Assembly (NCBI GenBank): GCA_033764435.1
Contig: JANRIX010000010.1
Location: 163,220 to 227,219 of the forward strand
Direction of reading: 5' to 3'
DNA length: 64,000 nt
Source: Burkholderiales bacterium
GTDB taxonomy: Bacteria; Pseudomonadota; Gammaproteobacteria; Burkholderiales; Usitatibacteraceae
Below the pieces are notes generated by a model, which saw only the letters and a list, made by a program, of their open reading frames with translations, searched no databases and was not told the origin of the DNA. This document shows positions 6,312 through 35,450 of the stretch, piece after piece (position 1 is the first letter of the stretch; every line of letters begins with the position of its first letter). Both the position numbers and the translations under genes were made by a program.

Positions 6312-8459
6312 ATGCCGTCACGCCAAGTCAACCTCACCCATGCCGGACTTCGCACGCTGGACGCCCGGCCAGACCGCCTCGATCTGCGCGACCGCCCGTA
6401 TCTGCCCCCGGTGCGATCGCTGCCGCATCGCTACCCCAGCGACGCCAATCTCCGGAAACTCCTTCCCGATTACCTGAAGAAAAAGATGGTGCTCGATCAG
6501 GGCCAGGAAGGCGCATGCACCGGCTTTGGTCTCGCGGCCGCCATCAACTTCATGCTCTGGTACAGGCATGTCGAAACCAAAGGTCGCTACCCCTACAAGC
6601 GGGTCAGCCCGTACATGCTCTACGACCTCGCGCGCTTCTACGACGAATGGCCGGGCGAGGACTACGACGGCTCCAGCTGCCGCGGCGCCATGAAGGGCTG
6701 GCACAAACATGGCGTCTGCGAATATTCGCACTGGACCAGCTCGGTGAAGCCCGGCGGAACCTCGGGAAAATCATCGAAGCCGTACAAACCCAATACCGGT
6801 TGGGCATTCGATGCGGCCAACTGTCCGGTCGGCATCTACTACCGGGTCAATCGCGAGTCTGTCACCGACATCCAGGCCGCCATCAACGAAATGGGCGCGG
6901 TCTACGTCGCGGCCACCGTCCACGCCGGCTGGGACAGCGTCAAGCTGGCGAATGCCCGCCTGAAAAGCCACGACGACATCCCGGTCATTCCGTGGACGAA
7001 GGACTATCAAGCCACTGGCGGTCACGCGTTTGCGCTGATGGGCTTCAACGAATCCGGCTTCGTCGTGCAGAACTCCTGGGGCGACCGATGGGGCAACCAG
7101 GGCTTCGCCGTGATCACCTACGCCGACTGGGTTGCCAACGGCTGCGACGCGTGGGTGTGCTCGCTGGGCGTGCCACAGGTCAAGCCCGGGTCGGCTGCCA
7201 ACGCGGCAACGGTGTCGCGCGTGCGCCAATTGAATTCGTCGGCTGTCACGCCGGCTGCGGCGCTCGCCTCGACAGCGCCTTCTGCCGCCGAGCCGTGGGA
7301 CGTGGACACCGCCTACGCGCACACGCTGGTCGCCGGCAACAACGGCGTCGTCCGCCACAACACCCCTGATATCGGCAGCGCAGCCGCCCAGGTCGAGAAG
7401 ATCCTCGTCGATGCGCCGCTGGCCTGGGCCAGGGAAACAAAGCTTGCCAAGTCCGGCAAGCCACTCAAGCTGATGCTCTACGCGCATGGCGGCCTCAATT
7501 CGGAAGACAGCTCGGTGAAGCGCATTCGCAAGCTGGGACCGTACTTCCTCGCCAACGGCGTGTACCCCGTGTTCTACACCTGGCGCACCGGGTTCATGGA
7601 AGTTGTGAAAAGCGCTCTCGGCGACGCATTTGCCCCGAGTGAAGCGCCCGCGTCGGGCAAGCTGGCCGACGCCAAGGACGCGCTGATTGAGGCGATCTGC
7701 CACGGCACGCGCGCCATCTGGAACGAAATGACGGAGAACGCCGCGCGCGGCGCCGACGCCGGACACGCGATCGACCTCGCGGCCGAGGCGATCGTCATGC
7801 TCGCCAGCAAAGTCGATCTTGAAGTGCATCTCGTTGGCCACTCCGCCGGATCGTTCGTCCACGGCCACCTCATGGACGCGCTCGCCAAGCGCAAGCTGCC
7901 GGTGCACTCGCTGACCCTCTACGCCCCCGCCTGCTCACTCGACTTTGCCAATGAACACTTCGTCCCGGCGGTGCAGAAGAAGCGGCTGGCCAAGGACGCG
8001 TTCTGGCTGCACGTCCTTTCCGACAAGCGCGAGCGTGCGGATTTCGTGGGGCCCGGCACGACCCGGGTCTACGGCAAATCCCTGCTCTATCTCGTCAGCC
8101 GAGGGTTCGAGAGCACGCGCAAGACGCCACTCGCGGGGCTTGAACACTGCCTCGATACGCGCGCCGACAACCCCGACGATGATCTGTGGACAAAGGCGCT
8201 CTACGAGAAGGATGTGCTGGCGTGGCGGAAGTTCGTTGCCACGCTGCCCGCGCAGGCGGATGGCAGGGCGGCGGTGGAGGTCACGGATGCCGATGTCGTC
8301 ACTGAGAAACTGAACGCCGACGGGACCATGTCGACCACCAAGGCCTCGCACGGCTCGTTCGACAACGATGTCGATGTTGTCACGCGCACGATCAATCGCG
8401 TGCTGGGGGTGGCCCCCGGCGCGAAGTTGGCGGTGCCGGTCGTGGATTTGAAGTATTGA
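6312..8459 (+). CDS. fusion protein: N-terminal papain-like (C1) cysteine peptidase domain + C-terminal alpha/beta-hydrolase domain
   Basis: RBS aaggagg before ATG 6312. C1 motifs: QGQEGACTGFGLAAAINF (Gln/Cys), GGHAFALMGF (His), VVQNSWGDRWGNQGF (Asn-Ser-Trp). Hydrolase motifs: LMLYAHGGLN (oxyanion HGG), LVGHSAGSFV (GxSxG nucleophile), C-terminal SHGSFDND. Confidence 0.8.
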   Translation: MPSRQVNLTHAGLRTLDARPDRLDLRDRPYLPPVRSLPHRYPSDANLRKLLPDYLKKKMVLDQGQEGACTGFGLAAAINFMLWYRHVETKGRYPYKRVSPYMLYDLARFYDEWPGEDYDGSSCRGAMKGWHKHGVCEYSHWTSSVKPGGTSGKSSKPYKPNTGWAFDAANCPVGIYYRVNRESVTDIQAAINEMGAVYVAATVHAGWDSVKLANARLKSHDDIPVIPWTKDYQATGGHAFALMGFNESGFVVQNSWGDRWGNQGFAVITYADWVANGCDAWVCSLGVPQVKPGSAANAATVSRVRQLNSSAVTPAAALASTAPSAAEPWDVDTAYAHTLVAGNNGVVRHNTPDIGSAAAQVEKILVDAPLAWARETKLAKSGKPLKLMLYAHGGLNSEDSSVKRIRKLGPYFLANGVYPVFYTWRTGFMEVVKSALGDAFAPSEAPASGKLADAKDALIEAICHGTRAIWNEMTENAARGADAGHAIDLAAEAIVMLASKVDLEVHLVGHSAGSFVHGHLMDALAKRKLPVHSLTLYAPACSLDFANEHFVPAVQKKRLAKDAFWLHVLSDKRERADFVGPGTTRVYGKSLLYLVSRGFESTRKTPLAGLEHCLDTRADNPDDDLWTKALYEKDVLAWRKFVATLPAQADGRAAVEVTDADVVTEKLNADGTMSTTKASHGSFDNDVDVVTRTINRVLGVAPGAKLAVPVVDLKY
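6718..6729. repeat. GCGAATATTCGC palindrome copy (perfect)
   Basis: 12/12, extended TGCGAATATTCGCA; in the C1 peptidase domain, reads CEYSH (frame checked). Confidence 0.95.
8139..8459. repeat. direct repeat copy A (3' end of the peptidase/hydrolase gene), paralogous to 14676-14993
   Basis: Encodes LEHCLDTRADNPDDDLW...AWRKFVATLPAQADGRAAVEVTDADVV...SHGSFDNDVDVVTRTINRVLGVAPGAKLAVPVVDLKY. About 70% aa identity to the downstream remnant. Confidence 0.75.
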
Positions 8460-8469
8460 TCGAGCGCAC

Positions 8470-9921
8470 ATGAACCACCCGGACACAACGCCAAAGGAGC
8501 GATTGGAAAAGGAAAAGCTCAGGCTTGAGATTGCCCGCCTTTATGGCCTGTCCAGTATCGAAACTGAGAAAGCCAAGACTGATCTGAAAATTGCATCGGA
8601 CTCATTCAGGCGTCAGATCACGATCGCCGTGGTCGGACTGCTGATTCCGGCGCTTTCACTCGTTTGGTCTGTGCACTCTTACACCGAGTCCCAACGGGCA
8701 CGATCCAGCGAAGCCGACTCAAGGGCAAAGGCCGAGCGTGAGGCCTCCCTTGAGAAGTCCAAGAGTGAACTGGCCATTCGCGAGCGCCAAATGTTGATCC
8801 AAGCGCTGGGCCTACTTTCGAAACCAGATGCGGCAGAAAGAATTGCGGGTGCGGTGGCGCTCTCCGCGGCCGTCACGCCAGGCAGCCCGGAAGCGAAAAT
8901 TGCCACAGGCGCACTCCTCGCCCGACTTGCGCACGAAACAGACATTCCCGTGATCGAGGCAGTCTCCAGATCAGTGGCAAATTTCGGGGTTTCAGCCGCA
9001 CCAGAAATTGTCTCGCTGAACCAGCGCTCTGCCTACTCAGTTGCAACAAGCGTCGCAGACTGGTCCGCAGTATCCGATCGGAGATTGACTGAACGGGAAC
9101 GAAAGGCAATCCACAAGTCGGAGGAGAGCGAAAGGGCTTGGCTTTGGAGTCACGTTGGTGCCGTACTTGAGCGATCAGGACTCCCTATGCAGCCGGATCT
9201 CGAAGGCATCAATAAGTCCAGCTCGATCGCGGAGCTCAACATCCTCGGATCGAAGAAGTTCTGGGCTGTCTACACAGACAGAAGAGAGTCACTGCTGAAG
9301 CGACAAGGCGCAGGTTCGGCGCCAGAACCTGAAGGAGAGCTGGCGCCGAATCACCGTCGACACATTGCCTTGATCGAATCTCAAATCAGCCGGCATGCTC
9401 GAACTCTGGCCGGCACAAGCCTCGCATTGGTTCAAATACTTCGCACATCAAGCCCGGAGGCCATTCAAAAGCTGGACCTGAGTGGCATTTCTCTCACCCG
9501 CGGCAACCTCGATGGCACGAACCTCATGCGTGCAAGACTGAAGAGTGCACTCGTCTACGCAAGCCTCAGAAACGCAAATCTCAGCGGGGCCGTGTTGAGC
9601 AACGCACACATAGAGGGGCCAATGGGGAGAGCCGACTTCAGAACGGCAAACTTGGAGGGCGCGCAGATCAGAGGCATTGGCCTGCTGCAGGTGCTCTTTT
9701 TCGGCCGAAGCTGCAAGGCGAGCGCCGACAGACGGTCACGGTTTCCGATCATGGATGAGAATGGACGCAAATTGCTACTGGATCACATTACCGGGGGCAT
9801 AAGTGCCGATGGATTCAAACTCCTTGGCAATCAAGAAAAACAAACTGTCACTGCGGATAGCTTCAAGCAGAATGTCGCTCGCTTGCTGGTTGATTGCCTG
9901 GCGCCTGAAGTGATCCCATGA
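8470..9921 (+). CDS. pentapeptide-repeat protein with N-terminal coiled-coil/TM anchor
   Basis: One TM helix (ITIAVVGLLIPALSLVWSV). C-terminal pentapeptide repeats (LSGISLTRGNLDGTNLMRARLKSALVYASLRNANLSGAVLSNAHIEG...ADFRTANLEGAQIRG). Starts 11 nt after the upstream stop. Confidence 0.7.
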   Translation: MNHPDTTPKERLEKEKLRLEIARLYGLSSIETEKAKTDLKIASDSFRRQITIAVVGLLIPALSLVWSVHSYTESQRARSSEADSRAKAEREASLEKSKSELAIRERQMLIQALGLLSKPDAAERIAGAVALSAAVTPGSPEAKIATGALLARLAHETDIPVIEAVSRSVANFGVSAAPEIVSLNQRSAYSVATSVADWSAVSDRRLTERERKAIHKSEESERAWLWSHVGAVLERSGLPMQPDLEGINKSSSIAELNILGSKKFWAVYTDRRESLLKRQGAGSAPEPEGELAPNHRRHIALIESQISRHARTLAGTSLALVQILRTSSPEAIQKLDLSGISLTRGNLDGTNLMRARLKSALVYASLRNANLSGAVLSNAHIEGPMGRADFRTANLEGAQIRGIGLLQVLFFGRSCKASADRRSRFPIMDENGRKLLLDHITGGISADGFKLLGNQEKQTVTADSFKQNVARLLVDCLAPEVIP

Positions 9922-9971
9922 AATTCGGGATCAGTCGTTGCCCGAATTGAATTTTCCGGAGCCACATAATC

Positions 9972-10907
9972 ATGCCACCCACCCGCATCGCCTTCACCTC
10001 CTGCGCCCGCATCGAGGACTTCCCTTCCCAGCCGCAGTGGAAGGAGATCCAGGATGCCGAACCGCACTACCTCCTCCTGCTGGGCGATCAGATCTACATG
10101 GACTACGGATTCAGCAGCGAGCCGAACGGTTCGCCTGCCGACTATCCGCTGGACAAGTTTCGGGACACGATGGCGGCAAAGTACGCGCGCCAGTGGTCGG
10201 AGACACATTTCAAGGACCTGCTTGAATACATGCGCGCCGAGGAGTCTCCAGACAAACCGCGAATATTCGGCACCTGGGACGACCATGACTTCGGCTGGAA
10301 CAATGCCTTCGGCCTGCAGCCGAAAATGACGCCCGACAAATACCAGGCCACGCTCGACCTCTTCCATCAATGGATGAATTGCTCGACCAACCGGCCGCAT
10401 GTGTACTGTCACGCGGACATCGGCGACTTGGCCCGGCTCATCATCCTCGATCAGCGCAGTCACGCTGAGCCCGCAAGCCCGACCAAGCCGACGGCGTCGT
10501 TGCTGGGCGCGGACCAATGGGCGTTTCTGCGGGACAAGCTCAACCACGACAAGCAATACACCCTACTCTGCGGCGGGCTCAGCCTCACCCGCGGCAAGGA
10601 CAACTGGGAGGAGTACCAAGACGAGTACCAGCAACTGCGCGATCTCATCGAGGATCGCGAAGGCGTGATCTATCTGGGCGGCGACATCCACAGCAACAAA
10701 TTCATGAAGCCCGGCGATGACCGGCCGTGCTACGAGATCATCTCATCCGGGCTGGCCGTCAACCTGCTCGCGCTGACGTCGCTGGGCATTGACGATCGCC
10801 ATAACTGGAGCTATCTCGACCTCTCCGAAGAGGGTGTAAAGGTGGTGCAATCCACGTCGGGAAAGCTCAAGCGGCACGCAATCCGATTTGACAATTGGTG
10901 GGGCTGA
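9972..10907 (+). CDS. PhoD-like / calcineurin-like metallophosphatase
   Basis: Metallophosphoesterase signature blocks ARIAFTSC, LLLGDQIYMDYG, WDDHDFGWNN, LGGDIHSNKF. Confidence 0.75.
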   Translation: MPPTRIAFTSCARIEDFPSQPQWKEIQDAEPHYLLLLGDQIYMDYGFSSEPNGSPADYPLDKFRDTMAAKYARQWSETHFKDLLEYMRAEESPDKPRIFGTWDDHDFGWNNAFGLQPKMTPDKYQATLDLFHQWMNCSTNRPHVYCHADIGDLARLIILDQRSHAEPASPTKPTASLLGADQWAFLRDKLNHDKQYTLLCGGLSLTRGKDNWEEYQDEYQQLRDLIEDREGVIYLGGDIHSNKFMKPGDDRPCYEIISSGLAVNLLALTSLGIDDRHNWSYLDLSEEGVKVVQSTSGKLKRHAIRFDNWWG

Positions 10908-10969
10908 CCTCGGCTACACATCAGGGGACTTTGCAGGGGATTGCTTGCAATCCGGAAAGGGGGCGAACG

Positions 10970-13306
10970 ATGAGTACCAAGCGGAAATCACGAGTGGCAT
11001 CCTCCAGAGCGCCAAAGGAAGAGATTGAGCTGTCGATCTGCGCCTTTGGTGTCGACCCTTTGACGATCACCCTGCCCGATCCGTCTTCGGACATGCAGTC
11101 GGTGAACATCAAGCAGCTCATCCTCAACTCGACTGCGGAACTCTGGACATACACGCTTCAGAACCGGATGCGCTGGCAAAGCGAAGATGGCATCTCGTCG
11201 AAGCTGACTCGGAAGGCCCGGGGCGCATTCGAAGAACTGGGAATCGCCCCGAGCGAGTGGTCCAAGCTGGCCTCCAGCAAGATCGCCCAGATTTCAATCC
11301 CCGTTGATCGGCTTGGCCAGAACGCGCTTCGACTCATGCCGTGGGAGTTCTTCATCGCCTCCGCGCTGGCCGCTGATCCACGAGTGCCCATCGTCCGCAA
11401 AGCTGTATTCACTCAGTCCGCAAAGCCTGCAACTCCAGAGCGCACCAACAAGACCATTCTCTTTATCCAGAGCGCGCCAGGCCGGTTGGGCACAGCGTAC
11501 GACTTTGATTCAGAGAAAAAGCTGGTCAGGTCAACGTTCAGCGACGCCACTGTCAAGATTCTGGAAAACCCTGACATCGCCGAGATCCGCAGGTGCGTTG
11601 TAGATCTGGATCCCGAGGTGATTCACTTCGCTGGCTTCGATTATCGGCAGGCGATGGCAGAGCTGTCGGCTGACGCCGCGGGCGAGTACCCCTCCGCGAT
11701 CCCGCGAGTGGGTGCGTGGCCAGAGGACTCGTTTGACGGCGTCGTTCTTGGTGACCCCGCTCAAGGTGTCGTCGCGCACCATTCCGCCGAGTTTGCCGAC
11801 GCCCTGTGTGCCGGCAAGCGGGGGCCGGTCATGGTTTGCCTCGCGTGCTGGCATGGCGCGACCGCGCTCGCGCCCGAGCTAGTGCTGGCCGGCGCGCGGA
11901 GTTGCTTCTGCTTTCAGGACATTCTGGATGATGAGTTCGCCGAGACGATCCTGTCGTCCTTCTACCGCTTCTGGCGCGACGAGAACTGGAAGCTCGGCCC
12001 CGCCTTCACCAACACACTTCGCCACTTGTGGAAGCAGCCCGGCGGCGTGCGCGGCACCGGCATCGTTCTTCTCACCACCGACGAGCTTGTCGCCCGGAAC
12101 ACACCGGAAACCGAGCCGCAGAAAACAGAGGCAGCTCCCCCGCTCAGGGGGAAGAAGTTGGCAGACGCGAACCTCCCGGCGTTGATCGGCTTCGACATTC
12201 GCCCGCACAACGAGCTCAACTACGCGATGCTCCATAACGCGCAGCCACTGTTCAAGAGCTTCCGCATCATTCGCCTGTCCGACGCAGAGTTCGAGGACTT
12301 GGAAATCACGGTCGACCTTTGCACAGGACCGGAAGGCAAGGCGTTCCGACGCACGACAGCATTGCGCGTTCAAACGCTTGATCTCACGCGTGAGATCGTC
12401 ATCCCCCTCAATGCGACCCTCTCCCGCCAGATCCGCGAAGCAGTGTCCAGCAGCCTGTTCGTCGAGATCGCCTGTGGCGGCAGAATCCTTCACCGAGAGA
12501 CCCATCGAGTCCGCCTGCTGCCAGCGGATCAATGGAAAGACAGCGCCAAGGACAGCCGCTGGCTGCCCAGCTTTGTGCTCCCGCGCGACCCGGCCGTCAC
12601 CCACGTCATCCGGGACGCGCACAAGTACGTCAAAGTCCTGCGCGATGATCCCGACGCCGGATTCGAGGGCTATCAGGTCTACTCCAGCATCGACGACGAG
12701 AGTGAGCACAGCGAGGACGAACAGATCGCCCTGGATCTGCAAGTTCAAGCCATCTGGGCCGCGATCGCACACGAATGCCGGTTGGTCTACATCAATCCGC
12801 CGCCCACCTACAGCGATGGCTTCGACTCACAGCGGCTGCGCACACCCAGCACGACAGTCAATGGTCAGATGGGCACCTGCATTGACCTCGCGCTCCTGTT
12901 TGCCGCCTGCCTGGAGTTCGTGGACATCTACCCCGTCATCTTCCTGCTGGATGGTCACGCACTTCCCGGCTATTGGCGCAGCGAGACCGCACACAGCCGA
13001 TTCGTCTGCATCGACAACCCCGGCGACGCGGCTGTCCGCCAGAGTCGAAGCAGTGCCCTCGCCGGTGGGTCGAAACTTGGGGACGGCTGGGTCTTTGACG
13101 AATCGATTTATGAGGAAATCAGAAAGGAAATCGAAATCGGCAATCTGGTGCCCGTCGAATCGACCCGACTGACCCAGGTCTCGTCATTCGCGCAGGCCGT
13201 CGAGCTCGGCACGCGCGCCCTGGCTTCCGCATCGGGCTTTCAATGCATGCTCGACATCCATATCGCGCGGCAATTGAACGTAACGCCGCTGCCCATACAG
13301 GAGTAA
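10970..13306 (+). CDS. CHAT (caspase-like) domain + C-terminal transglutaminase-like cysteine-protease domain protein
   Basis: RBS aaaggggg before ATG 10970 (M26 of ORF 10895). CHAT-like block VIHFAGFDY...VMVCLACWHGATALAPELVLAGARSCFCFQDILDDEFAETILSSFYRFW. C-terminal transglutaminase-core-like block GTCIDLALLFAACLEFVDIYPVIFLLDGHALPGYW (Cys..His..Asp). Confidence 0.65.
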   Translation: MSTKRKSRVASSRAPKEEIELSICAFGVDPLTITLPDPSSDMQSVNIKQLILNSTAELWTYTLQNRMRWQSEDGISSKLTRKARGAFEELGIAPSEWSKLASSKIAQISIPVDRLGQNALRLMPWEFFIASALAADPRVPIVRKAVFTQSAKPATPERTNKTILFIQSAPGRLGTAYDFDSEKKLVRSTFSDATVKILENPDIAEIRRCVVDLDPEVIHFAGFDYRQAMAELSADAAGEYPSAIPRVGAWPEDSFDGVVLGDPAQGVVAHHSAEFADALCAGKRGPVMVCLACWHGATALAPELVLAGARSCFCFQDILDDEFAETILSSFYRFWRDENWKLGPAFTNTLRHLWKQPGGVRGTGIVLLTTDELVARNTPETEPQKTEAAPPLRGKKLADANLPALIGFDIRPHNELNYAMLHNAQPLFKSFRIIRLSDAEFEDLEITVDLCTGPEGKAFRRTTALRVQTLDLTREIVIPLNATLSRQIREAVSSSLFVEIACGGRILHRETHRVRLLPADQWKDSAKDSRWLPSFVLPRDPAVTHVIRDAHKYVKVLRDDPDAGFEGYQVYSSIDDESEHSEDEQIALDLQVQAIWAAIAHECRLVYINPPPTYSDGFDSQRLRTPSTTVNGQMGTCIDLALLFAACLEFVDIYPVIFLLDGHALPGYWRSETAHSRFVCIDNPGDAAVRQSRSSALAGGSKLGDGWVFDESIYEEIRKEIEIGNLVPVESTRLTQVSSFAQAVELGTRALASASGFQCMLDIHIARQLNVTPLPIQE

Positions 13307-13310
13307 GGCC

Positions 13311-14660
13311 ATGAGCACGTTTAGCGCAGAAAACCGCAAGGATGTGGGCGAATGCATCAAGTCTTCCATCTCCTCCATGGAGAGCCTTTTTTCGGCGGAG
13401 CACATGGAAGCCTCGGAGCGGATGACCGGCCGCCGACGCAGCGGTGCGACGCTGCGACAGCAGCCGCGCCTGCAGCTGGTGGATGTCGACGGCGTGTTGC
13501 GCTGGCGATACCGGGATGTCGAGGCCGGACCGAGCGGGAGACGTTCGCTCCGCGCCATCGCTGCCACGGCCATGGGAGATGTCGTGGTCGACCTCCCCTT
13601 GAAGCCGTTGAACCGCAATCAAGTGCTGGCTGCGATGCAAAGCCTCGATGATTCCCTCACGCCCTCGCGCGGGCTGCGAGTGATTCACGAGGGTCAACTG
13701 GTCAAGGCACCGGAGATCGAGCACCCGGCAAAGGTTCTGCTCTTCATACACGGCACCTTCAGCAAGGGCGAGGCCCTCTACGACGAACTCAAGTCCACCG
13801 AGGACGGCCACAAGTTCCTGCATTGGGCGCATGAGCACTATGATCACGTGCTCTTCTTCGATCATCCCACGCTCGCCGTCAGCCCCATACTGAATGCCGT
13901 CGAGCTCAGCACACTTCTGGCGGGCCGCTGCAGCAGCATCGACATCATCGCCCACAGCCGCGGCGGCATCGTCGCCGCGTGGGCCGCCAAAGGCATGAAA
14001 CTGCCCCTCGGCATCGTGTGTACGCTGGGTAGTCCGCTCGATGGCACCAGCCTGGCCAGCCCCTACCGCCTGCGCGACACGCTGGACTACTTCGCCAACG
14101 TTGCCGCCGCTTGCAAGCTCGCCACCGGCGCACTCGGCGCTGTACCGTTTGCAGGTCCGCTGTTCGCAGCGACGGCCGGACTCATGTCTGTATTGCAAAC
14201 CGTCCTCTACGCCTCTGCCAAGACACCGCTCATCGACGCGGGCATTGCGATCGTGCCCGGCCTTGCAGCGCAATCACGTGTCGACAACAATCCGGAGCGG
14301 ATAGCGTTGCAGGATGACCGTACGGCGGCCCACGTATCCGGGACTTTCATCGGTGTCACCGCAAACTTCAGCCCGCAGCATATCGACGAGCCGATTTGGC
14401 AATTCTGGAAGCGGTGGCAGAGGCTGCCGTGGTCAGTGGCCAACAAGGTCACGGATGCCATCTTCGAGTCGGCCAACGATCTTGTCGTCGACTGCGACTC
14501 TGCAAAGAAATTCTGCGGCGCACCCGCAGCCGCCACGCAGATCTTCGACTTTGGTGACACCCATCTCGTGCATCACTGCAACTACCTGACGCAAAGCAGA
14601 ACGCTCGACTTCGTGAAGACGCATTTGACCGACCGGCATGCCGCAGCCGGGAGAACGTAA
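13311..14660 (+). CDS. alpha/beta-hydrolase (lipase/esterase-like) protein
   Basis: LLFIHGTFSKGEALY (oxyanion region) and IIAHSRGGIVAAW (GxSxG-type nucleophile elbow). Stop TAA 14658-14660 is in frame with the downstream remnant. Confidence 0.7.
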   Translation: MSTFSAENRKDVGECIKSSISSMESLFSAEHMEASERMTGRRRSGATLRQQPRLQLVDVDGVLRWRYRDVEAGPSGRRSLRAIAATAMGDVVVDLPLKPLNRNQVLAAMQSLDDSLTPSRGLRVIHEGQLVKAPEIEHPAKVLLFIHGTFSKGEALYDELKSTEDGHKFLHWAHEHYDHVLFFDHPTLAVSPILNAVELSTLLAGRCSSIDIIAHSRGGIVAAWAAKGMKLPLGIVCTLGSPLDGTSLASPYRLRDTLDYFANVAAACKLATGALGAVPFAGPLFAATAGLMSVLQTVLYASAKTPLIDAGIAIVPGLAAQSRVDNNPERIALQDDRTAAHVSGTFIGVTANFSPQHIDEPIWQFWKRWQRLPWSVANKVTDAIFESANDLVVDCDSAKKFCGAPAAATQIFDFGDTHLVHHCNYLTQSRTLDFVKTHLTDRHAAAGRT

Positions 14661-15090: not shown

Positions 15091-15159
15091 AATTGGCAGC
15101 ATCAAACCGCCTCACAGCGCAATTCGCTGCCGGCGTCACAAAAAGCCACCAGAAAACAC

Positions 15160-15192
15160 CAGAACCCTACAAAGGTTGATGGGGTTTCTTCT
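15160..15192 (+). terminator. terminator-like hairpin + T-tract (member of the ccctaY..tgggg hairpin family)
   Basis: aaccctacaaaggttgatggggtttcttctc; related to the hairpins at 3343 and 6233. Confidence 0.35.
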
Positions 15193-15590
15193 CGCCAGCT
15201 TAGACATACTGTCTCGTAACGTTGCCTTCATCGATGCCCTGCGCAAGAATGACCCGTAAATGATTGACATCGTCCTGGACGACTTTGCCAATGCGCTGGC
15301 CGAACTGCTGACGACGAACGAGATGTCGATAACGCCCGATACACAATCAATCGCCGACGACGGCGAGCCGACTTGACCAGCGACGCAATGTGACTCGATC
15401 AATCCAAAGCCGAGCAAATGCGCATCACTCTCAGAACGAGGATGAAGAACCAGCTCGTCCAGGCTGTCGTGAAGGGGCGAGGGATGAGATGACAGAGGAA
15501 GAGGAGCGGCATGCGGGGCATGAAGACGTTAGGTCAAGAGCGGCGATTGTGATCGCCAAACCATAGTCCTACAAGGCATTTGACGGTATC

Positions 15591-16595
15591 TTGGCATTGC
15601 ATAGCCCAATGCCGCGCTCATTGAACCGACCGAAAGAAATCAAGGTCGTTGCAGGAAAGGGGAAATACTTGTTTAACTCGCAGATTGGTCCACTAGACGG
15701 CCCTTCCTGGGAGGCGCTGTGCCAAGAGGCCCTCAAGAGACGGCACCATTCCGAGGGATACCAAGAAATGAAAGCGTCCCCCGGCGACTATGGGATTGAT
15801 GGCTTCACACTGGATTCTGGACTTGCCTTTCAGTGCTATTGCCCGGAAAAACACTACTCTCGGCCAGAGCTGTATGAAAAGCAGAGAGACAAAATCACAG
15901 AAGACGTAGGGAAGCTACGGACGCATCAGAAGCCAATTCTCGACAGAGTTGGGAGCAATAAGTTCTCGAAATGGATATTCCTTACCCCTGAGTATGACAA
16001 GAATGATCTTCTCGCCCACGCAAGAAGCAAAGAAGTAGAAGTTCGAAGCTGGAACCTACCATTCCTAACTTCGGATTTTCAGATAGTAATAAGGGATGCC
16101 TCTGACTACAGAACTGAAATCAATGAGATCCGCGTCCTCAGTCTGGAGCCCCTCTACTTTGAGGATGAAGTCCCGACCCTAAAAACGATTCAGGGCGAGA
16201 AGGAAGAGCACGAAAAAAACATCGAGAGGAAGTCCAAGGCCCGACTTGCAGGGGCCGAACAAAGCCCTCGCTATTCAACTCGACTGGAGCAACTGCGTCA
16301 GAAGACTCTGGAGAGTTTTTTTGAGTACGAAGATTTCTTTCGAAAAATTAGTGACGACGCGCCGTTGATTTACGTCAGGCTAGTTCGACTAATAAATGAG
16401 TATGAAGAGATGGTGGTCGAGTCCTCCACCACATGGTCGGGAACAGCACAGGACCTAACTGAAAAAATTCGTGATGACCTAGCTTCTAGGATTTCTCAAG
16501 AGCTTGCGCCACAGATATCAGCGGCCACTGCAATGAAGATAGCCAGAATAATGACTGCGCGATGGATAGCTGTTTGCGAGTTGGACTATGGATAG
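15591..16595 (+). CDS. Lamassu/ABC-3C-like system, putative effector subunit (LmuA-like)
   Basis: 334-aa ORF in a ~45% GC block, first of three translationally coupled genes (overlaps 16588/17046). Weak PD-(D/E)xK-like pattern (GDYGIDGF...QCYCPEK). Assignment rests on position and architecture. Confidence 0.4.
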   Translation: MALHSPMPRSLNRPKEIKVVAGKGKYLFNSQIGPLDGPSWEALCQEALKRRHHSEGYQEMKASPGDYGIDGFTLDSGLAFQCYCPEKHYSRPELYEKQRDKITEDVGKLRTHQKPILDRVGSNKFSKWIFLTPEYDKNDLLAHARSKEVEVRSWNLPFLTSDFQIVIRDASDYRTEINEIRVLSLEPLYFEDEVPTLKTIQGEKEEHEKNIERKSKARLAGAEQSPRYSTRLEQLRQKTLESFFEYEDFFRKISDDAPLIYVRLVRLINEYEEMVVESSTTWSGTAQDLTEKIRDDLASRISQELAPQISAATAMKIARIMTARWIAVCELDYG

Positions 16596-17049
16596 CCCAA
16601 TCGTCGAACTTGTATTCCGGCGCCAGCCATCGGCGGTGATTCCAGAACACAGACCACTTTACAAGATCTCTCAGCTTGCGCTGATCCTAAATGTCTCATC
16701 CCGCGCTGGACGATCTAAAGTTTCGCGATTGCACTTATTGAACTGGGCGCTAAAGAAGAGATCGCGACAACTGTTGCTAGAACGTGCTGCTGAAAGCGGC
16801 ACACTTAGGATTCAAGCTTGGGGCTTCGATCCCATTCTTGCATTTGCAATTCGCTTTGCACTCGCTGACGGCATTGTTGCAGATACGTCGACCGGTTATG
16901 AGCTCACGGAGAAAGGAAGATCCTTTGCCATGGCCATTCTGAAAGATCCCACTTTGTTGGCGAGCGACAAAGTTTTTCTAGAAAGAATCGGAAAAGGCAT
17001 TACGGAAACAATGGTGGATGCTGTGGCAAATGACTGGGACATTAGATGA
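16588..17049 (+). CDS. Lamassu/ABC-3C-like system, small middle component (LmuC-like)
   Basis: 153-aa ORF overlapping both neighbours by 8 and 4 nt; no catalytic motifs. Confidence 0.4.
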   Translation: MDSPIVELVFRRQPSAVIPEHRPLYKISQLALILNVSSRAGRSKVSRLHLLNWALKKRSRQLLLERAAESGTLRIQAWGFDPILAFAIRFALADGIVADTSTGYELTEKGRSFAMAILKDPTLLASDKVFLERIGKGITETMVDAVANDWDIR

Positions 17050-19091
17050 AGATAAATGCGATTCGGGTCAAGATTTCGGCAACCGAAGGTGACTTTGGAT
17101 TTAATTTCCAGTTTGGTAAGAATCTGACAATCATTAGAGCCAACAACACAAGCGGTAAGAGCACTCTAATCAACTGCTTGCTATACGGCCTGGGCATGGA
17201 AGAGCTGATTGGGGGCAAGGGGGAAAGGACGCTCTCGTCCGCGGTCAAAGACGCGTTCGATCACGGCCAAAAGAAGATTCAGGTTCTTAGCTCTGAAGTA
17301 TGGCTTGAGATTGAAAACTCTCAAGGTGCAATAGTCACACTTCGGAGAGCCATCAAAGATAAATCCCGCGACTCAAAGCTAATCGAGATTTATCCCGTCG
17401 CATTTCTGACAGAGGGCGAAACGCCAATCACCTCAACTCCAACATATTTGCACGATCCCGGAAGCGCCAAGAACCAAGGGGGCTTCTATCATTACTTGGA
17501 ACAGTTCCTCCAACTCTCACTGCCGAGAGTACCCACAGTTTCTGGCTCCGAAACGAAGCTCTACATTCAATGCGTTTACACAGCTTGTGCTGTAGAACAA
17601 AAAAGAGGTTGGACTGACTACCTAGCAAACATGCCATTTTTTGGTATCAGAGATGCGAGAACCAGGGTTGTTGAATACATTTTGGGACTCGATGTATTTG
17701 AAACAAATTCTGAGAGAAATAGACTCAACCAAGAGTCAATTGAGATCGATAAGGACTGGAGATCATTGGTTGAGCAAATGAATTCGAAGGGGCTTCGAAT
17801 CGGCGCAAAGTTAGTCAACCTTCCAGCTACGCCGACAGTGTCGTTCGATCCCAATCTCGTGGCGTATGTCTTCCCACAGGGCCAAGCGACCATCACATTG
17901 TCAGAGCATCTCTCGGCGCTTCGATCGCGACACGCAAGTCTCGAGGCTCAAAGAGATCGATTCCGCTCGAACGCCAGCCAAGAATCCATACAAGCAGTCG
18001 ACTCCACAACAGAGGAGTTGAGCCAGCTGAATCTTTTTCACGGCCGCTCTCTTGCTTATGTCGAGCAACTAAAGATTTCACTCTCTCAGTATGGCGAGCA
18101 ACTGGAGGAGACAAACGAAGATCTGTCTAGGAATAAAACTGCCGGGAAGCTACAAGAGCTAGGTGCAAAATTCGAATTCAGCACCAGCTCCAACATCTGC
18201 CCAACTTGCGATCAACCGATCAATGAATCTCTGATACCAAAGGCAATCTCAGGACCGCAAATGGATCTTGCGTCGAACATTCGATATCTCGACAGTCAGA
18301 GGAAGATGCTCGAACGGCAGATTCTTGGAATACAACAGAGCTTAGCTGATGCCGAATCGAACACGAAGGCGTTTGAAGCTCAGATTCGGACCAAGACGCA
18401 GTTTCTTGCCAACCTAAGGGGAGACATTTCAACTGGAGCTGCAGAGTCTCGGGCTGTTGCCCGAGAGCAAGCCCAAATTGAACTTGAAATAGAAGCATTG
18501 GAGAGATTGGTTTCGGATCTCGCCCCGTCCTTAAATCGGATAAACGCACTAGCCCTGAAACTAAGAGAAAACCAAGCATTTCGCAACACTCTTCCTAAGT
18601 CGATCTACACGGAATCTGACGAAAGCAAGATTCGAATTTTTGAGAAGCAGTTTCGAGCAAATGCCGGCTCCTTTGGATACGAAAGCGCTCCAATCAATGA
18701 GATTGGCATTTCCTTTGAGAAACTTACTCCGAGTTGGGCAGACATCGAATTGCGCGAAGTGATTGACCGAGACATTCAAGCGGAATCAAGTGCCAGCGAT
18801 TTTATAAGATTGATCTGGAGCTACTTACTAGCACTTCACCAGACTTCGGCGCTGAGCGCGGTTGACGGTCGACATCTCGGCCAGCTAATTCTCGACGAGC
18901 CTGGACAGCACTCAATGGCTGCCCCGAGCCAGCACGCCCTACTTAAGCAATTAGCCGCTGAGAAAGAGCTTCAAAGCATTGTGTCAGCCTCGTTTGATGA
19001 GACCGAGGAGGTATTCCTGAAGGCAACCGCAGGCATTGCGTTTGAATTAATTCGCTGGGAGGGAAAGCTGATTCAACCACTCGATGCGTAA
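17046..19091 (+). CDS. SMC/Rad50-like ABC ATPase with coiled-coil and CxxC zinc-hook (LmuB-like)
   Basis: Walker A IIRANNTSGKST at the N-terminus. Long coiled-coil with ICPTCDQPINESLIP (CxxC hook) at its centre. C-terminal Walker B QLILDEPGQH. Confidence 0.7.
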   Translation: MKINAIRVKISATEGDFGFNFQFGKNLTIIRANNTSGKSTLINCLLYGLGMEELIGGKGERTLSSAVKDAFDHGQKKIQVLSSEVWLEIENSQGAIVTLRRAIKDKSRDSKLIEIYPVAFLTEGETPITSTPTYLHDPGSAKNQGGFYHYLEQFLQLSLPRVPTVSGSETKLYIQCVYTACAVEQKRGWTDYLANMPFFGIRDARTRVVEYILGLDVFETNSERNRLNQESIEIDKDWRSLVEQMNSKGLRIGAKLVNLPATPTVSFDPNLVAYVFPQGQATITLSEHLSALRSRHASLEAQRDRFRSNASQESIQAVDSTTEELSQLNLFHGRSLAYVEQLKISLSQYGEQLEETNEDLSRNKTAGKLQELGAKFEFSTSSNICPTCDQPINESLIPKAISGPQMDLASNIRYLDSQRKMLERQILGIQQSLADAESNTKAFEAQIRTKTQFLANLRGDISTGAAESRAVAREQAQIELEIEALERLVSDLAPSLNRINALALKLRENQAFRNTLPKSIYTESDESKIRIFEKQFRANAGSFGYESAPINEIGISFEKLTPSWADIELREVIDRDIQAESSASDFIRLIWSYLLALHQTSALSAVDGRHLGQLILDEPGQHSMAAPSQHALLKQLAAEKELQSIVSASFDETEEVFLKATAGIAFELIRWEGKLIQPLDA

Positions 19092-19097
19092 TTGCCT

Positions 19098-19826
19098 ATG
19101 CCGGTTTTTCGAGTAATTCTTGCTTCTCAACTCCGCCTCCTAACCTTCCGCGAATTCAAACCCAACCTGCGCGACCACTGGCGCGCGTATCTGGGCTGGG
19201 GGATGTTCTGGACGTGGGTGGCGGGCATGGGCCGGTATTGGGACAACCCCAAAGCCGAGTGGTGGCAGGCGCTGGGCCTGGGCTCGATCGCGTACATCTT
19301 CACGCTGGCGCTGGTGCTGTGGCTGATCATCCTACCGCTCAAGCCGAAAAACTGGACCTATCGCAACATCCTTATCTTCCTCTCGCTGACCTCGCTGCCG
19401 GCGGTGCTGTACGCGATCCCGGTGGAGCGCTTCATGCCGCTCGCCCAAGCGCAGGCGGCGAATGCGTGGTTCCTCGGCATCGTGGCGACGTGGCGGGTGC
19501 TGCTCTTGTGGTTCTTCATCCGCCGCGTGGCGCGGCTCTCCTGGCTGGACACGCTGGTGGCGTGCCTGCTGCCGCTCACGCTGATCGTCGTCGCGCTGAC
19601 GGCGCTGAACCTGGAGCACGTGGTGTTCAACATCATGGCGGGCAACACGCCTGAGCAGCAGTCCGGCAATGATCGGGCCTACGGGATTCTGTTTGTGATC
19701 ACGTTCTTTTCCATGATGCTCTCGCCGATTTTGGTGCTGGTCTATTTCGCGCGGGCAGGCATTCGGCTGCGGGAGGTGCGGGCGGAGCGGGATGCAGAAG
19801 AGGCTGGCCGACGCACGGGACAATAA
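19098..19826 (+). CDS. multi-pass membrane protein (6 predicted TM helices), hypothetical
   Basis: ATG 19098 lies 7 nt after the ATPase stop. GC returns to ~62%. Highly hydrophobic 243-aa product. Confidence 0.55.
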   Translation: MPVFRVILASQLRLLTFREFKPNLRDHWRAYLGWGMFWTWVAGMGRYWDNPKAEWWQALGLGSIAYIFTLALVLWLIILPLKPKNWTYRNILIFLSLTSLPAVLYAIPVERFMPLAQAQAANAWFLGIVATWRVLLLWFFIRRVARLSWLDTLVACLLPLTLIVVALTALNLEHVVFNIMAGNTPEQQSGNDRAYGILFVITFFSMMLSPILVLVYFARAGIRLREVRAERDAEEAGRRTGQ

Positions 19827-19884
19827 AGATGCGGTGAATTCATCATTGGTCTGAGAGTCGAAAGGCAGGCCAACCTTCCATGGG

Positions 19885-20724
19885 GTGACCAGATTGGGAT
19901 ATCAACGATGCAGCTTTGGGCTATTCGCAGGCGGATTGTTGGCCTCACTCTTTGTCGCAGCGCAAGAGTGCAGGCCGATTGAGAACCTGGAGAAGGTGGC
20001 TGACAAGAGATTGATCTTTGTTGGCGAGCTTCACGGCACAAAAGAATCCCCGCAATTCGTTTCCGACCTGACGTGCGGTTTGCTGCACATGAAGAAGCAG
20101 GTTGTTCTTGCAGTTGAGATGTCGAGTGACTTTCAGCCAGATTTGCAGTCAGCTATCAACGCGCCATCGGAACAGCAAGCTCTTGCCGAACTGGAGAAGC
20201 TTCGCTTTTGGGATGCGACGATGCAGGACGGGAAGCGCAGCTTGGCCTACATGAAACTGTTGAGGACGGCTTGGAGCTGGAAGCGGCAATTCCCTGACTT
20301 CGATGTTGCGGCAATCGATCTCTCGGGGTCCAGTTTCCCGTCTGCCAGAGCTGAGTTCATGGCAGGTGAGATCAGAAAGATTCTGAATCGCGACAGGCAG
20401 GTGGTGGTTGTCGCTTTTACTGGAAACATTCATGCTCGCAGACAGAAGGGAACACCCTGGAACAAGGCGTTTGTCCCAGCCGCCTCTCTGCTCAACGATG
20501 TTGAAATGGTCTCGCTGAATATGGACTACACGGCAGGGACAGCTTGGAACTGCGGGGGGCGCGGCTGCGGCATCAATCCAGTTTCCGACTTGCCAGTGAC
20601 TGGCAAGTCAACGAAGCCAAGCATTCAGATCAGTCAAGCGGACCCCTACTACGACGGCGTTTATCAACTCGGTGAAGTATCCGCCTCACCGCCTGTTCGA
20701 CAATCCCCAACAGCGAGTAAGTGA
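19885..20724 (+). CDS. hypothetical secreted protein (possible TraB/Tiki/ChaN-like fold)
   Basis: N-terminal signal (FGLFAGGLLASLFVAAQ); LIFVGELHGTKESPQF block; ~50% GC. Confidence 0.5.
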   Translation: MTRLGYQRCSFGLFAGGLLASLFVAAQECRPIENLEKVADKRLIFVGELHGTKESPQFVSDLTCGLLHMKKQVVLAVEMSSDFQPDLQSAINAPSEQQALAELEKLRFWDATMQDGKRSLAYMKLLRTAWSWKRQFPDFDVAAIDLSGSSFPSARAEFMAGEIRKILNRDRQVVVVAFTGNIHARRQKGTPWNKAFVPAASLLNDVEMVSLNMDYTAGTAWNCGGRGCGINPVSDLPVTGKSTKPSIQISQADPYYDGVYQLGEVSASPPVRQSPTASK

Positions 20725-20788
20725 GCTTGTCAGTTGGGCGTTTATTCAATTAGGGCGGGCTTAATCGTTTCGGCTGGTTTCGTGCACT

Positions 20789-32987: not shown

Positions 32988-33058
32988 GATTTCCAGCGGG
33001 AGTCGAACCCGCACTGATCGATTACAAGTCGATTGCTCTACCAATAAGCTATGGATTG
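32988..33058 (-). tRNA. tRNA-Thr(TGT)-like gene with defective acceptor stem (possible pseudogene or partial copy)
   Basis: Minus-strand D-arm TAGCTTATTGGTAGAGC, anticodon arm ATCGA-CTTGTAA-TCGAT (anticodon TGT) and T-arm GCGGG-TTCGACT-CCCGC are canonical. The 5' strand CAATCCA pairs only 4/7 with the 3' strand TGGAAAT, and no CCA is encoded. Confidence 0.4.
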
Positions 33059-33130
33059 GCGATGATCGTGGGAGTCGAACCCACGACAGCCGGTGGGTAC
33101 CGGTGCTCTACCAGACTGAGCTAGATCATC
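33057..33130 (-). tRNA. tRNA-like gene (Trp-tRNA-like body) with a truncated 4-nt anticodon loop
   Basis: Perfect acceptor GATGATC/GATCATC, discriminator G and encoded CCA; D-arm GCTC-AGTCTGGTA-GAGC; T-arm GTGGG-TTCGACT-CCCAC. The anticodon region is CCGGT-ACCC-ACCGG, a 4-nt loop 3 nt shorter than canonical. Confidence 0.4.
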
Positions 33131-33254
33131 AGGTATTCAACACCGCCCGCATCGCGGCATACGGCGCACCAATTTTCAGGCGTGCCGCACCAGGGAGGCA
33201 TGCAGAACCTCGCCCGCTGTCGATGCGTTTGGAGAAGAATTGGGTTGGAGCGAT

Positions 33255-33266
33255 GCGAATATTCGC
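33255..33266. repeat. GCGAATATTCGC palindrome copy (perfect)
   Basis: 12/12, extended TGCGAATATTCGCA; intergenic, left flank of the REP-like element. Confidence 0.95.
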
Positions 33267-33283
33267 AACACTCCGAAGAGGAC

Positions 33284-33356: not shown

Positions 33357-33359
33357 GGT

Positions 33360-35360: not shown

Positions 35361-35450
35361 GGTTTTTCTCCTTGGTGTGATTGTGAAGCAGATTGCGGGC
35401 GCGCTTGTAGACAAGTAGGCCGCGCGCTTCATCGCGGCCCCGCATGTAAG

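What the first reader, a model, noticed from the sequence alone, without database searches (positions are those of the whole stretch)
15591..19091. Low-GC three-gene cassette resembling a Lamassu/ABC-3C anti-phage system (effector - small subunit - SMC/Rad50-like ATPase with zinc hook)
GC drops to ~45% exactly over three translationally coupled genes (overlaps of 8 and 4 nt). The third gene encodes Walker A (NNTSGKST), a long coiled-coil with central CPTC zinc hook, and Walker B (QLILDEP), i.e. a Rad50/SMC-like ABC ATPase as in LmuB/DdmC. The first (334 aa) and second (153 aa) match the sizes and order of LmuA-like effector and LmuC-like middle subunit. The LmuA-like protein lacks a recognisable Cap4/Sir2/hydrolase effector domain; it has only a weak PD-(D/E)xK-like pattern, so it may carry a novel effector.
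Basis: partly seen in the sequence, partly recalled or inferred. Interest (0 to 1): 0.65.

Follow-up and report, generated by a model that had tools for sequence, protein, structure and literature searches.

The report
Lamassu anti-phage system, nuclease-type effector
The low-GC three-gene cassette is an intact, horizontally acquired Lamassu (ABC-3C) anti-phage system, a kind that current defence-gene catalogues already detect; its effector has a restriction-endonuclease fold, so it is an ordinary find with one small unusual feature in the predicted active site.

Summary
Three translationally coupled + strand genes (overlaps of 8 and 4 nt) occupy a 48.4% GC block in a 63% GC genome.

All three best-match PADLOC's Lamassu profiles: LmuA 8e-38, LmuC 9.5e-21, LmuB 4e-105. 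The experimentally validated Lamassu-Mrr systems of E. coli SE15 and B. cereus 172560W best-match the same three profiles.

- **LmuB:** conserved Walker A, a central CPxC zinc hook, a signature-like SSASDF motif and a Walker B ending in DE.

The A-C-B operon recurs in 20 of 23 related genome loci, including Clostridia and an archaeon, and it also occurs on plasmids.

The suggestion of a novel effector is not supported. However, this LmuA family has no Pfam model (766 clusters at 50% identity). It is not significantly similar by profile to canonical Mrr-type LmuA, and it carries Q-C-Y where those have Q-C-K.

Verdict: a new member of a known kind, of low to moderate interest.

The parts
15100..19091 (.). 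Low-GC block, probably acquired horizontally, that carries the cassette. The left edge is gradual (about 15,100-15,600). The right edge is sharp, at the LmuB stop codon.
   Evidence: GC profiles. The host's repeated 12-mer GCGAATATTCGC occurs at 14734, 15013 and 15079, then not again (even with one mismatch) until 20789. No flanking direct repeats and no integrase were found.
15672..16595 (+). lmuA, the effector subunit. The likely product is 307 aa starting at TTG 15672. The longest ORF starts at 15591, and ATG 15609 is also in frame.
   Evidence: PADLOC LmuA PDLC03852, 8e-38, nearly full length. The start is inferred from the AGGAAAGGGG at 15653-15662 and from homologues. The NCBI record starts it at M60 (275 aa), which removes conserved residues G37, W40 and E41.
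15672..16139 (+). LmuA N-terminal effector domain with a restriction-endonuclease (PD-(D/E)xK, Mrr-like) fold. Conserved residues in the 334-aa numbering: W40-E41, G65-D66-x-G68-x-(E/D)70, Q81-C82-Y83, K101, D105, K108.
16206..16574 (+). LmuA C-terminal all-helical domain, presumed to dock on LmuB/LmuC and to drive oligomerisation. Invariant K214, W325 and C329.
   Evidence: AF2 secondary structure and conservation. The PADLOC LmuA profile alignment covers it. No Pfam ABC-3C C-terminal-domain model matches, so its role is inferred by analogy with solved LmuA (PMC12663957).
16588..17049 (+). lmuC, the small winged-helix middle component (153 aa). It overlaps lmuA by 8 nt.
17046..19091 (+). lmuB, the Rad50/SMC-like coiled-coil ABC ATPase (681 aa). 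It overlaps lmuC by 4 nt.
   Evidence: PADLOC LmuB PDLC03863, 4.1e-105, residues 1-671. Pfam AAA_23, 7.5e-8. Coiled-coil region 285-515 matches SMC/Rad50 models well below their cut-offs.
17142..17165 (+). LmuB Walker A (NNTSGKST, residues 33-40)
   Evidence: N34, G37, K38, S39 and T40 are at least 95% conserved in 18 orthologues.
18198..18209 (+). LmuB zinc hook CPTC (residues 385-388), in the middle of the coiled coil
   Evidence: C385, P386 and C388 are at least 95% conserved. It is the only CxxC in the protein.
18786..18803 (+). LmuB signature-like motif SSASDF (residues 581-586)
   Evidence: All six residues are at least 95% conserved in 18 orthologues. Equating it with the ABC signature motif is an inference from its position.
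18882..18902 (+). LmuB Walker B QLILDEP (residues 613-619). The catalytic Glu is retained.
   Evidence: D617, E618 and P619 are at least 95% conserved. The hhhhD[Q/S/T/E] form is that of 'short' Lamassu (PMC12663957).

Best explanation
This is a complete type II ('short') Lamassu / ABC-3C abortive-infection defence system, acquired horizontally by a Burkholderiales genome.

What the sequence and models show:
- lmuA, lmuC and lmuB form one translationally coupled operon.
- LmuB is a Rad50-like coiled-coil ABC ATPase with intact Walker A, Walker B (DE) and a CPxC zinc hook.
- LmuC is a small winged-helix protein with the fold of solved LmuC.
- LmuA combines an N-terminal restriction-endonuclease-fold domain with a helical C-terminal domain.

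What is inferred by homology with the solved Vibrio, Salmonella and Bacillus Lamassu complexes and with the validated E. coli SE15 Lamassu-Mrr system:
1. An LmuB dimer, joined through the hook, together with LmuC holds a single LmuA in an inactive monomeric state through the LmuA C-terminal domain.
2. LmuB and LmuC bind DNA ends or the replication intermediates of a phage or plasmid.
3. ATP hydrolysis releases LmuA.
4. LmuA oligomerises through its C-terminal domain, which brings the nuclease domains together.
5. The active nuclease degrades DNA indiscriminately, and the infected cell dies before the phage spreads.
For: - **Profile matches.** PADLOC: LmuA 8e-38 (residues 30-319 against profile positions 13-326 of 336), LmuC 9.5e-21, LmuB 4.1e-105. 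The 'Mrr nuclease' LmuA, LmuC and LmuB of E. coli SE15 (scored as defending) and B. cereus 172560W (Millman 2022, Table S2) best-match the same three profiles, PDLC03852, PDLC03871 and PDLC03863.
- **LmuB motifs.** They are at least 95% conserved in 18 orthologues.
- **Operon conservation.** The A-C-B order with all three genes occurs in 20 of 23 related genome loci, and identities of the three proteins fall together. The loci include beta- and gammaproteobacteria, Clostridia, a Brocadiia MAG and a Nitrososphaeraceae archaeon.
- **Mobility.** Copies lie on plasmids of several phyla.
- **Defence context.** A Polaromonas plasmid copy lies beside BREX genes. Flanking ORFs of relatives hit PARIS AriA, SspE, NsnB, HEC and MADS models.
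- **Composition.** GC is 48.4% against 63.6%, and the host 12-mer is absent from the cassette.
- **Mechanism.** Taken from PMC12663957, 10.1101/2025.06.23.660979 and 10.1101/2022.05.11.491447.
Against: - No experiment exists for this family.
- The LmuA family is not significantly similar to canonical Mrr-type LmuA by HMM or profile-profile comparison. Only a non-significant greedy alignment puts the motifs in register. The shared PADLOC profile may therefore be a composite.
- No Pfam ABC-3C C-terminal-domain model matches the LmuA C-terminal domain.
- The canonical Lys of the Q-x-K motif is Tyr in 97% of the family, so nuclease chemistry is not assured.
- No defence genes were recognised next to the cassette in this window.
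- All solved Lamassu complexes carry Cap4 effectors, so release and oligomerisation are extrapolated to this effector.
Confidence: 0.82

Rival explanations
1. The scaffold is Lamassu, but the LmuA N-terminal domain is not a conventional DNA endonuclease. With Tyr in place of the catalytic Lys (Q-C-Y), it might cut a different substrate, use a rearranged active site built on K101, D105 and K108, or act non-catalytically.
For: - Q81-C82-Y83 is conserved in 97-100% of 118 diverse representatives.
- K87, the nearest downstream Lys, is not conserved, whereas K101 is invariant.
- No Pfam or NCBIfam model matches.
- There is no significant profile similarity to canonical Mrr-type LmuA.
Against: - The fold is clearly that of a restriction endonuclease.
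- The acidic residues (E41, D66, E/D70) and Q81 are in the expected places, in the same register as GDKGRD...YQCK of validated Mrr-type LmuA.
- From my own knowledge, bona fide PD-(D/E)xK nucleases tolerate other residues at the Lys position (BamHI has Glu, BglII has Gln).
- Strong purifying conservation implies an active enzyme.
Confidence: 0.1
2. The ATPase is a housekeeping SbcC/Rad50/RecN-type DNA-repair protein, and the two upstream genes are unrelated.
For: Weak matches to Rad50, SMC and an archaeal SMC-related model in the coiled-coil region. Lamassu is thought to derive from SbcCD (PMC12663957).
Against: - Those matches score 18-49 bits against cut-offs of 300-1087 bits.
- No sbcD/Mre11 gene is adjacent.
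- The protein has 681 aa, within the 600-800 aa range reported for LmuB and shorter than E. coli SbcC (about 1,050 aa, from my own knowledge).
- The gene is foreign in composition.
- It is strictly co-inherited with LmuA and LmuC.
- It matches the LmuB profile at 4e-105.
Confidence: 0.02
3. The cassette is a decaying, non-functional remnant of a Lamassu system.
For: - Decayed copies exist elsewhere: lone or truncated lmuA in L017, L018 and L023, and an apparently split lmuB on the Polaromonas plasmid.
- No sigma-70-like promoter was found upstream of lmuA by the simple scan.
Against: - All three ORFs are full length and still coupled.
- Every family-invariant residue checked is present in the window proteins.
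- The one visible departure, D for E at position 70, is shared by 15% of the family.
Confidence: 0.04
4. It is a different ABC-ATPase defence system, such as PARIS, Septu, Gabija, Wadjet or PbeABCD.
For: Weak PADLOC hits of the ATPase N-terminus to PtuA, PbeC and PDC-M46B (2e-7 to 3e-3).
Against: - Those hits mostly cover only the P-loop region or the coiled coil, and they are about 100 orders of magnitude weaker than the LmuB hit.
- The partner genes match LmuA and LmuC, not AriB, PtuB, GajB or JetABD.
Confidence: 0.02

Closest known systems
Lamassu-Mrr of E. coli O150:H5 SE15 (system SG108 in Millman et al. 2022, 10.1101/2022.05.11.491447), experimentally validated as an abortive-infection system
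   Same: - The gene order is the same: lmuA, lmuC, lmuB.
- All three proteins best-match the same PADLOC profiles (PDLC03852, PDLC03871, PDLC03863) as the window proteins.
- LmuB has a single CxxC hook.
- LmuC is a winged-helix protein.
- The LmuA motifs read (F/W)E ... GDxGx(D/E) ... QC in the same order.
   Different: - SE15 LmuA has 379 aa, carries the Pfam ABC-3C C-terminal domain PF20282 and has Q-C-K.
- The window family has about 307 aa, no Pfam domain, and Q-C-Y with an invariant K101 downstream.
- The two LmuA families are not significantly similar by profile comparison.
- LmuB has 681 aa against 620.
Vibrio cholerae DdmABC / Lamassu Vc-Cap4 (PDB 9NY5, 9NYG, 9NXX) and Salmonella LmuACB (9HQX)
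   Same: - Three-component architecture.
- The mechanism presumably follows the same steps: sequestration, sensing of DNA ends, release, oligomerisation.
   Different: - The effector there is a Cap4 (DUF4297) nuclease.
- Vc LmuB lacks a zinc hook, and Lamassu LmuB Walker B generally carries Gln in place of the catalytic Glu. This LmuB has a hook and DE.
- There is no sequence-level match to these chains.
SbcCD / Rad50-Mre11 DNA-repair complex
   Same: A coiled-coil ABC ATPase with a CxxC zinc hook that senses DNA ends. It is the proposed evolutionary ancestor of Lamassu.
   Different: - There is no Mre11/SbcD nuclease partner here.
- The coiled coil is shorter.
- The partners are LmuA and LmuC.
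- The gene is foreign in composition and found on mobile elements.
Mrr-type PD-(D/E)xK nuclease domains (Mrr_cat; the N-terminal nuclease domains of Avs4 and LlaBIII)
   Different: Pfam Mrr_cat (PF04471) does not match. The motif Lys is replaced by Tyr.

Membership tests
Lamassu (ABC-3C) defence systems | LmuB: an SMC/Rad50-like ABC ATPase with Walker A and Walker B separated by a coiled coil | tested here: met
   PADLOC LmuB 4.1e-105 over residues 1-671. Pfam AAA_23. The coiled-coil region matches SMC/Rad50 models. Walker A, Walker B and the signature-like motif are conserved in 18 orthologues.
Lamassu (ABC-3C) defence systems | LmuC: a small middle component encoded between lmuA and lmuB (type II) | tested here: met
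Lamassu (ABC-3C) defence systems | LmuA: an N-terminal effector domain followed by a C-terminal domain that docks on LmuB/LmuC | tested here: inconclusive
Lamassu (ABC-3C) defence systems | The three genes form one conserved, co-inherited operon | tested here: met
   Overlaps of 8 and 4 nt. The A-C-B order with all three genes occurs in 20 of 23 related loci across bacterial phyla and an archaeon.
Lamassu (ABC-3C) defence systems | Protection against phage or plasmids that depends on the ATPase, the effector and LmuC | not testable with these tools
   This needs cloning and plaque or plasmid-stability assays. Only context is available: copies on plasmids, a copy next to BREX, and defence genes in the flanks of relatives.
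'Short' Lamassu (Haudiquet et al. 2025) | Walker B of the form hhhhD[Q/S/T/E] (long forms have hhhhDD); LmuB of about 600 aa; zero, one or two CxxC motifs | tested here: met
   LILDE with one CPTC. The length of 681 aa lies between the reported means of 600 and 800. No LmuB phylogeny was run.
Lamassu-Mrr subtype | Matches the same LmuA, LmuC and LmuB profiles as validated Lamassu-Mrr systems | tested here: met
   PDLC03852, PDLC03871 and PDLC03863 are the best hits for the window proteins and for the SE15 and B. cereus 172560W proteins.
Lamassu-Mrr subtype | LmuA is homologous to canonical Mrr-type LmuA, with the D...Q-x-K catalytic motif and the PF20282 C-terminal domain | tested here: not met
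   Profile-profile and HMM comparisons are not significant. The motif is Q-C-Y. PF20282 is absent. The fold and motif register are nevertheless Mrr-like.
SbcCD / Rad50-Mre11 repair complex | An adjacent SbcD/Mre11 phosphoesterase, and an ATPase that reaches the family cut-offs | tested here: not met
   No such neighbour is present. Rad50 and SMC models score 18-49 bits against cut-offs of 300-1087 bits.

The most novel reading that the evidence does not exclude
This roughly 307-aa LmuA family is large: 766 clusters at 50% identity. It has no Pfam model for either domain and has never been tested. It may be a distinct Lamassu effector class in which the Mrr-type catalytic Lys is replaced by an invariant Tyr (Q-C-Y) and an invariant Lys, Asp and Lys (K101, D105, K108) on the next helix complete the site. 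That would mean different chemistry or a different substrate from the characterised Cap4 and Mrr effectors. The PADLOC 'Mrr' LmuA profile would then be lumping two unrelated protein families.
Probability: 0.12. Interest if true: 0.5.

Novelty: new member of a known kind. Interest (0 to 1): 0.25.

Why it matters
The result annotates three 'hypothetical proteins' of a Burkholderiales MAG as a complete Lamassu defence system. It also corrects the start of lmuA, which the public record truncates by about 32 residues and so removes conserved residues.

More generally, it shows that a widespread LmuA family, found in proteobacteria, Firmicutes, Actinobacteria, Bacteroidota and archaea and on plasmids, is detected by defence-finder profiles yet has no Pfam coverage and no experimental characterisation. 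That family has a Tyr-for-Lys variant of the Mrr-like active site.

All solved Lamassu complexes carry Cap4 effectors. A hook-bearing system with a DE Walker B and this compact effector would be a reasonable second model for testing whether activation by release and oligomerisation is general.

Tried and rejected
- **Sequence searches of PDB.** Neither the single proteins nor the LmuA family profile gave meaningful hits. The uL6 hits to LmuB are low-complexity or coiled-coil noise.
- **Pfam and NCBIfam.** Nothing matched LmuA or LmuC, even with all 28 family members scanned at E ≤ 10.
- **K87 as a shifted catalytic Lys.** I considered that K87 in 'QCYCPEKHY' could be the Lys displaced by a 4-residue insertion relative to 'QCKHY'. 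I rejected this because K87 is not conserved across the wider family.
- **Linking the family to canonical Mrr-type LmuA.** hhalign and hmmsearch were not significant.
- **Subtype label in Millman Table S7.** The stored file is cut and sorted with Cap4 systems first, so the label could not be recovered.
- **E. coli genomes and phage records.** No match in either.
- **Island borders by comparison.**
  - The metagenome scan with the DUF7379 neighbour found nothing.
  - Eighty loci anchored on the downstream 1175-aa gene shared no other neighbour.
  - The exact-protein look-up for LmuC found no record.
  - No flanking direct or inverted repeats were convincing.
- **Promoter and terminator scan.** It was uninformative.
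- **SMEK or Clade O assignment.** I considered whether this is the 'SMEK' effector class or the effector-less 'Clade O' of Haudiquet et al. An N-terminal domain is clearly present, so it is not Clade O. No library model of any kind matched LmuA, so SMEK could not be tested directly.
Full report
**Observation**

They overlap by 8 nt and 4 nt.

The cassette has 48.4% GC. Other 3.4-kb windows of the same 64 kb average 63.6 ± 2.3% and never fall below 57.8%. GC3 is about 0.50 in the three genes and 0.84 in the gene immediately downstream. The drop is therefore real and far outside the local range.

The palindromic 12-mer GCGAATATTCGC occurs 31 times exactly in the window, and 39 times if one mismatch is allowed, against 0.22 expected. 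There are three copies just upstream of the cassette and none between 15,091 and 20,788. This fits a foreign origin for the block.

The left edge of the low-GC segment is gradual (about 15,100-15,600). The right edge lies within about 100 nt of the LmuB stop codon. I found no integrase, no tRNA near the cassette, and no convincing flanking repeats.

**Gene model correction**

The first gene most likely starts at TTG 15672, giving 307 aa.
- AGGAAAGGGG lies at 15653-15662.
- Most full-length homologues are 300-310 aa and begin at the equivalent 'M-F/L-x-T/S' position.
- The public record calls it 275 aa from Met60. The source is a MAG labelled Burkholderiales bacterium, locus tag SF172_03375. 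That start would delete residues conserved across the family, namely G37, W40 and E41.
- ATG 15609 cannot be excluded.

**Identity of the three genes**

Pfam and NCBIfam recognise only a generic AAA_23 / SMC-N P-loop in the third protein and nothing in the first two. PADLOC assigns all three to Lamassu:
- LmuA PDLC03852, 8e-38, residues 30-319 against profile positions 13-326 of 336.
- LmuC PDLC03871, 9.5e-21.
- LmuB PDLC03863, 4.1e-105, residues 1-671.

To learn what these profiles represent, I took the sequences of two Lamassu systems labelled 'Mrr nuclease' in Table S2 of Millman et al. 2022. These are E. coli O150:H5 SE15, scored as defending, and B. cereus 172560W. Their LmuA proteins (1e-105 and 1e-112), the SE15 LmuC (4e-57) and the N-terminal halves of their LmuB proteins (3e-105 and 2e-101) best-match the same three profiles. 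By the criteria of current defence-system finders, the cassette is therefore a Lamassu system of the 'Mrr' subtype.

**LmuB**

Across 18 orthologues recovered from related loci, the following are at least 95% conserved:
- Walker A (N34, G37-K38-S39-T40).
- A single central C385-P386-x-C388 hook.
- A signature-like S581-S-A-S-D-F586 motif.
- Walker B ending in D617-E618-P619.

The hhhhDE form of Walker B is the one Haudiquet et al. (PMC12663957) describe for 'short' Lamassu; long forms have DD. Walker B of Lamassu LmuB generally carries Gln in place of this Glu, whereas this clade keeps the catalytic Glu. Matches to Rad50/SMC equivalog models cover only the coiled coil and score 18-49 bits against cut-offs of 300-1087 bits. 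No sbcD-like gene is nearby.

**LmuC**

**LmuA, the effector**

The AF2 model (mean pLDDT 76.6) has two domains:
- An alpha/beta N-terminal domain, residues 28-183 in the 334-aa numbering, with block-mean pLDDT about 74-95 across most of it.
- An all-helical C-terminal domain, residues 206-328.

Family-wide conservation was measured on 118 representatives, 22-47% identical to the window protein. It highlights W40-E41 on the first helix, G65-D66-x-G68-x-(E/D)70 before the second strand, Q81-C82-Y83 on the third strand, and K101, D105 and K108 on the following helix.

This layout matches that of the validated Mrr-type LmuAs ('FE ... GAGDKGRD ... YQCKHY'). The exception is that the motif Lys is Tyr in 97% of the family. 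A greedy hhalign puts the three motifs in the same register, but the alignment is not statistically significant (E 0.098).

The suggestion of a novel effector is not supported.

**A caveat on the Mrr label**

The window's LmuA family and the canonical Mrr-type LmuA family are not detectably homologous by HMM or profile-profile comparison.
- The canonical proteins have about 375 aa and carry the Pfam ABC-3C C-terminal domain PF20282.
- The window family has about 307 aa and matches no Pfam model in either domain.

That both score strongly and over their full length on PDLC03852 suggests the profile was built from a mixed set. I therefore file the cassette under Lamassu with a restriction-endonuclease (Mrr-like) effector. 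I do not claim orthology of its LmuA with the SE15 LmuA.

The family is large: 766 clusters at 50% identity at E ≤ 1e-3, and 602 at E ≤ 1e-10.

**Distribution and context**

The A-C-B operon with all three genes is present in 20 of 23 related genome loci. These are beta- and gammaproteobacteria, two Clostridia MAGs, a Brocadiia MAG and a Nitrososphaeraceae archaeon, and identities of the three proteins fall in parallel. The other three loci hold only lone or truncated lmuA remnants.

Twenty-nine plasmids carry a homologue, from Proteobacteria, Bacteroidota, Firmicutes and Actinobacteria. No phage record and no complete E. coli genome does.

On a Polaromonas plasmid the copy sits a few kilobases from brxL and pglZ of a BREX system. 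Flanking ORFs of related loci hit PADLOC models for PARIS AriA, SspE, NsnB, HEC systems and MADS. In this window, the immediate neighbours have no PADLOC match. They are a DUF7379 hydrolase-like protein, an 803-aa protein of unknown function, a Yip1-like membrane protein and a ChaN-like protein.

**Mechanism**

Shown here:
- A coupled three-gene operon.
- An intact ATPase with a hook.
- An LmuC with the fold of solved LmuC.
- An LmuA with a restriction-endonuclease fold.

Inferred from the cryo-EM and biochemical work on the Vibrio, Salmonella and Bacillus systems (PMC12663957; 10.1101/2025.06.23.660979) and from the genetics of Lamassu-family systems (10.1101/2022.05.11.491447):
1. LmuB2-LmuC sequesters one monomeric LmuA through the LmuA C-terminal domain.
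2. The complex recognises DNA ends or the replication intermediates of a phage or plasmid.
3. ATP hydrolysis releases LmuA.
4. LmuA oligomerises and cuts DNA non-specifically, aborting the infection.

All solved complexes carry Cap4 effectors, so steps 3 and 4 are extrapolations for this effector.

**Rivals**

| Rival | Probability | Main point |
|---|---|---|
| Lamassu scaffold with an effector of altered chemistry or substrate | about 0.10 | Rests on Q-C-Y and the lack of profile similarity to Mrr-type LmuA |
| Decayed, non-functional copy | about 0.04 | Intact ORFs and the presence of every family-invariant residue argue against it |
| Housekeeping SbcC/RecN | about 0.02 | Excluded |
| Another ABC-ATPase defence system | about 0.02 | Excluded |

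**Verdict**

The cassette is a correctly spotted, intact Lamassu type II system with a short, hook-bearing LmuB and a restriction-endonuclease-fold effector. It is already detectable with existing defence-finder profiles, so it is a new member of a known kind.

The only mildly unusual feature is the uncharacterised, Pfam-invisible LmuA family with Tyr in place of the motif Lys. Interest is 0.25.

Noticed in passing
window 836-62582 (for example 14734, 15013, 15079, 22385): The palindromic 12-mer GCGAATATTCGC occurs 31 times exactly, or 39 times with up to one mismatch, in 64 kb against 0.22 expected. It is often followed by A-A-G. It is spread across the window, apparently both within and between ORFs, and is absent from the Lamassu cassette (15,091-20,788). 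It looks like a genome-wide uptake-signal-like or REP-like word, or a regulator site.
   Followed up: partly
window 6312-14660, + strand: Five same-strand genes lie just upstream of the cassette, most with short gaps or overlaps:
- a 715-aa protein with a weak papain-like C1 peptidase match;
- a 483-aa pentapeptide-repeat protein;
- a 311-aa PhoD-like phosphatase;
- an 803-aa protein with no family match;
- a 449-aa DUF7379 protein with a GxSxG-like AHSRGG motif.

The two genes next to the cassette (803 aa and DUF7379) have no PADLOC match; the other three were not scanned against PADLOC. The cluster could be an uncharacterised conflict or secreted-enzyme cluster.
   Followed up: partly
window 15768 (Met60 of the long ORF) versus 15672: The public annotation of the effector gene (SF172_03375, 275 aa) appears to start too far downstream. 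That start removes about 32 conserved N-terminal residues, including the W40-E41 helix of the nuclease domain.
   Followed up: yes
L017 8001-8921; L018 8001-8390; L023 8001-8192: Three related genomes (Paraburkholderia sp. DGU8, Massilia sp. PDC64, Ottowia sp. VDI28) keep only a frame-broken or truncated lmuA, with no lmuC or lmuB. These are decayed remnants of the same system.
   Followed up: partly
L104 (Polaromonas sp. P1-6 plasmid CP087967.1) 5998-9436 and 10802-12918: On this plasmid copy all genes are annotated 'hypothetical protein'. lmuB looks split into two ORFs, and the system lies next to BREX brxL and pglZ, a defence-island context.
   Followed up: no
window 33057-36703, - strand: A cluster of seven tRNA genes (Leu-CAG, Gln-TTG, Lys-CTT, Arg-ACG, His-GTG, Glu-TTC, Cys-GCA) at 35451-36703, plus one odd ARAGORN call with a two-base anticodon at 33057-33130.
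   Followed up: no
L007 and L012: Two loci attributed to very different organisms (a Clostridiales MAG and a Pseudescherichia MAG) have almost identical flanking ORF layouts. This suggests a binning or contamination problem in one of the MAGs, or very recent transfer.
   Followed up: no
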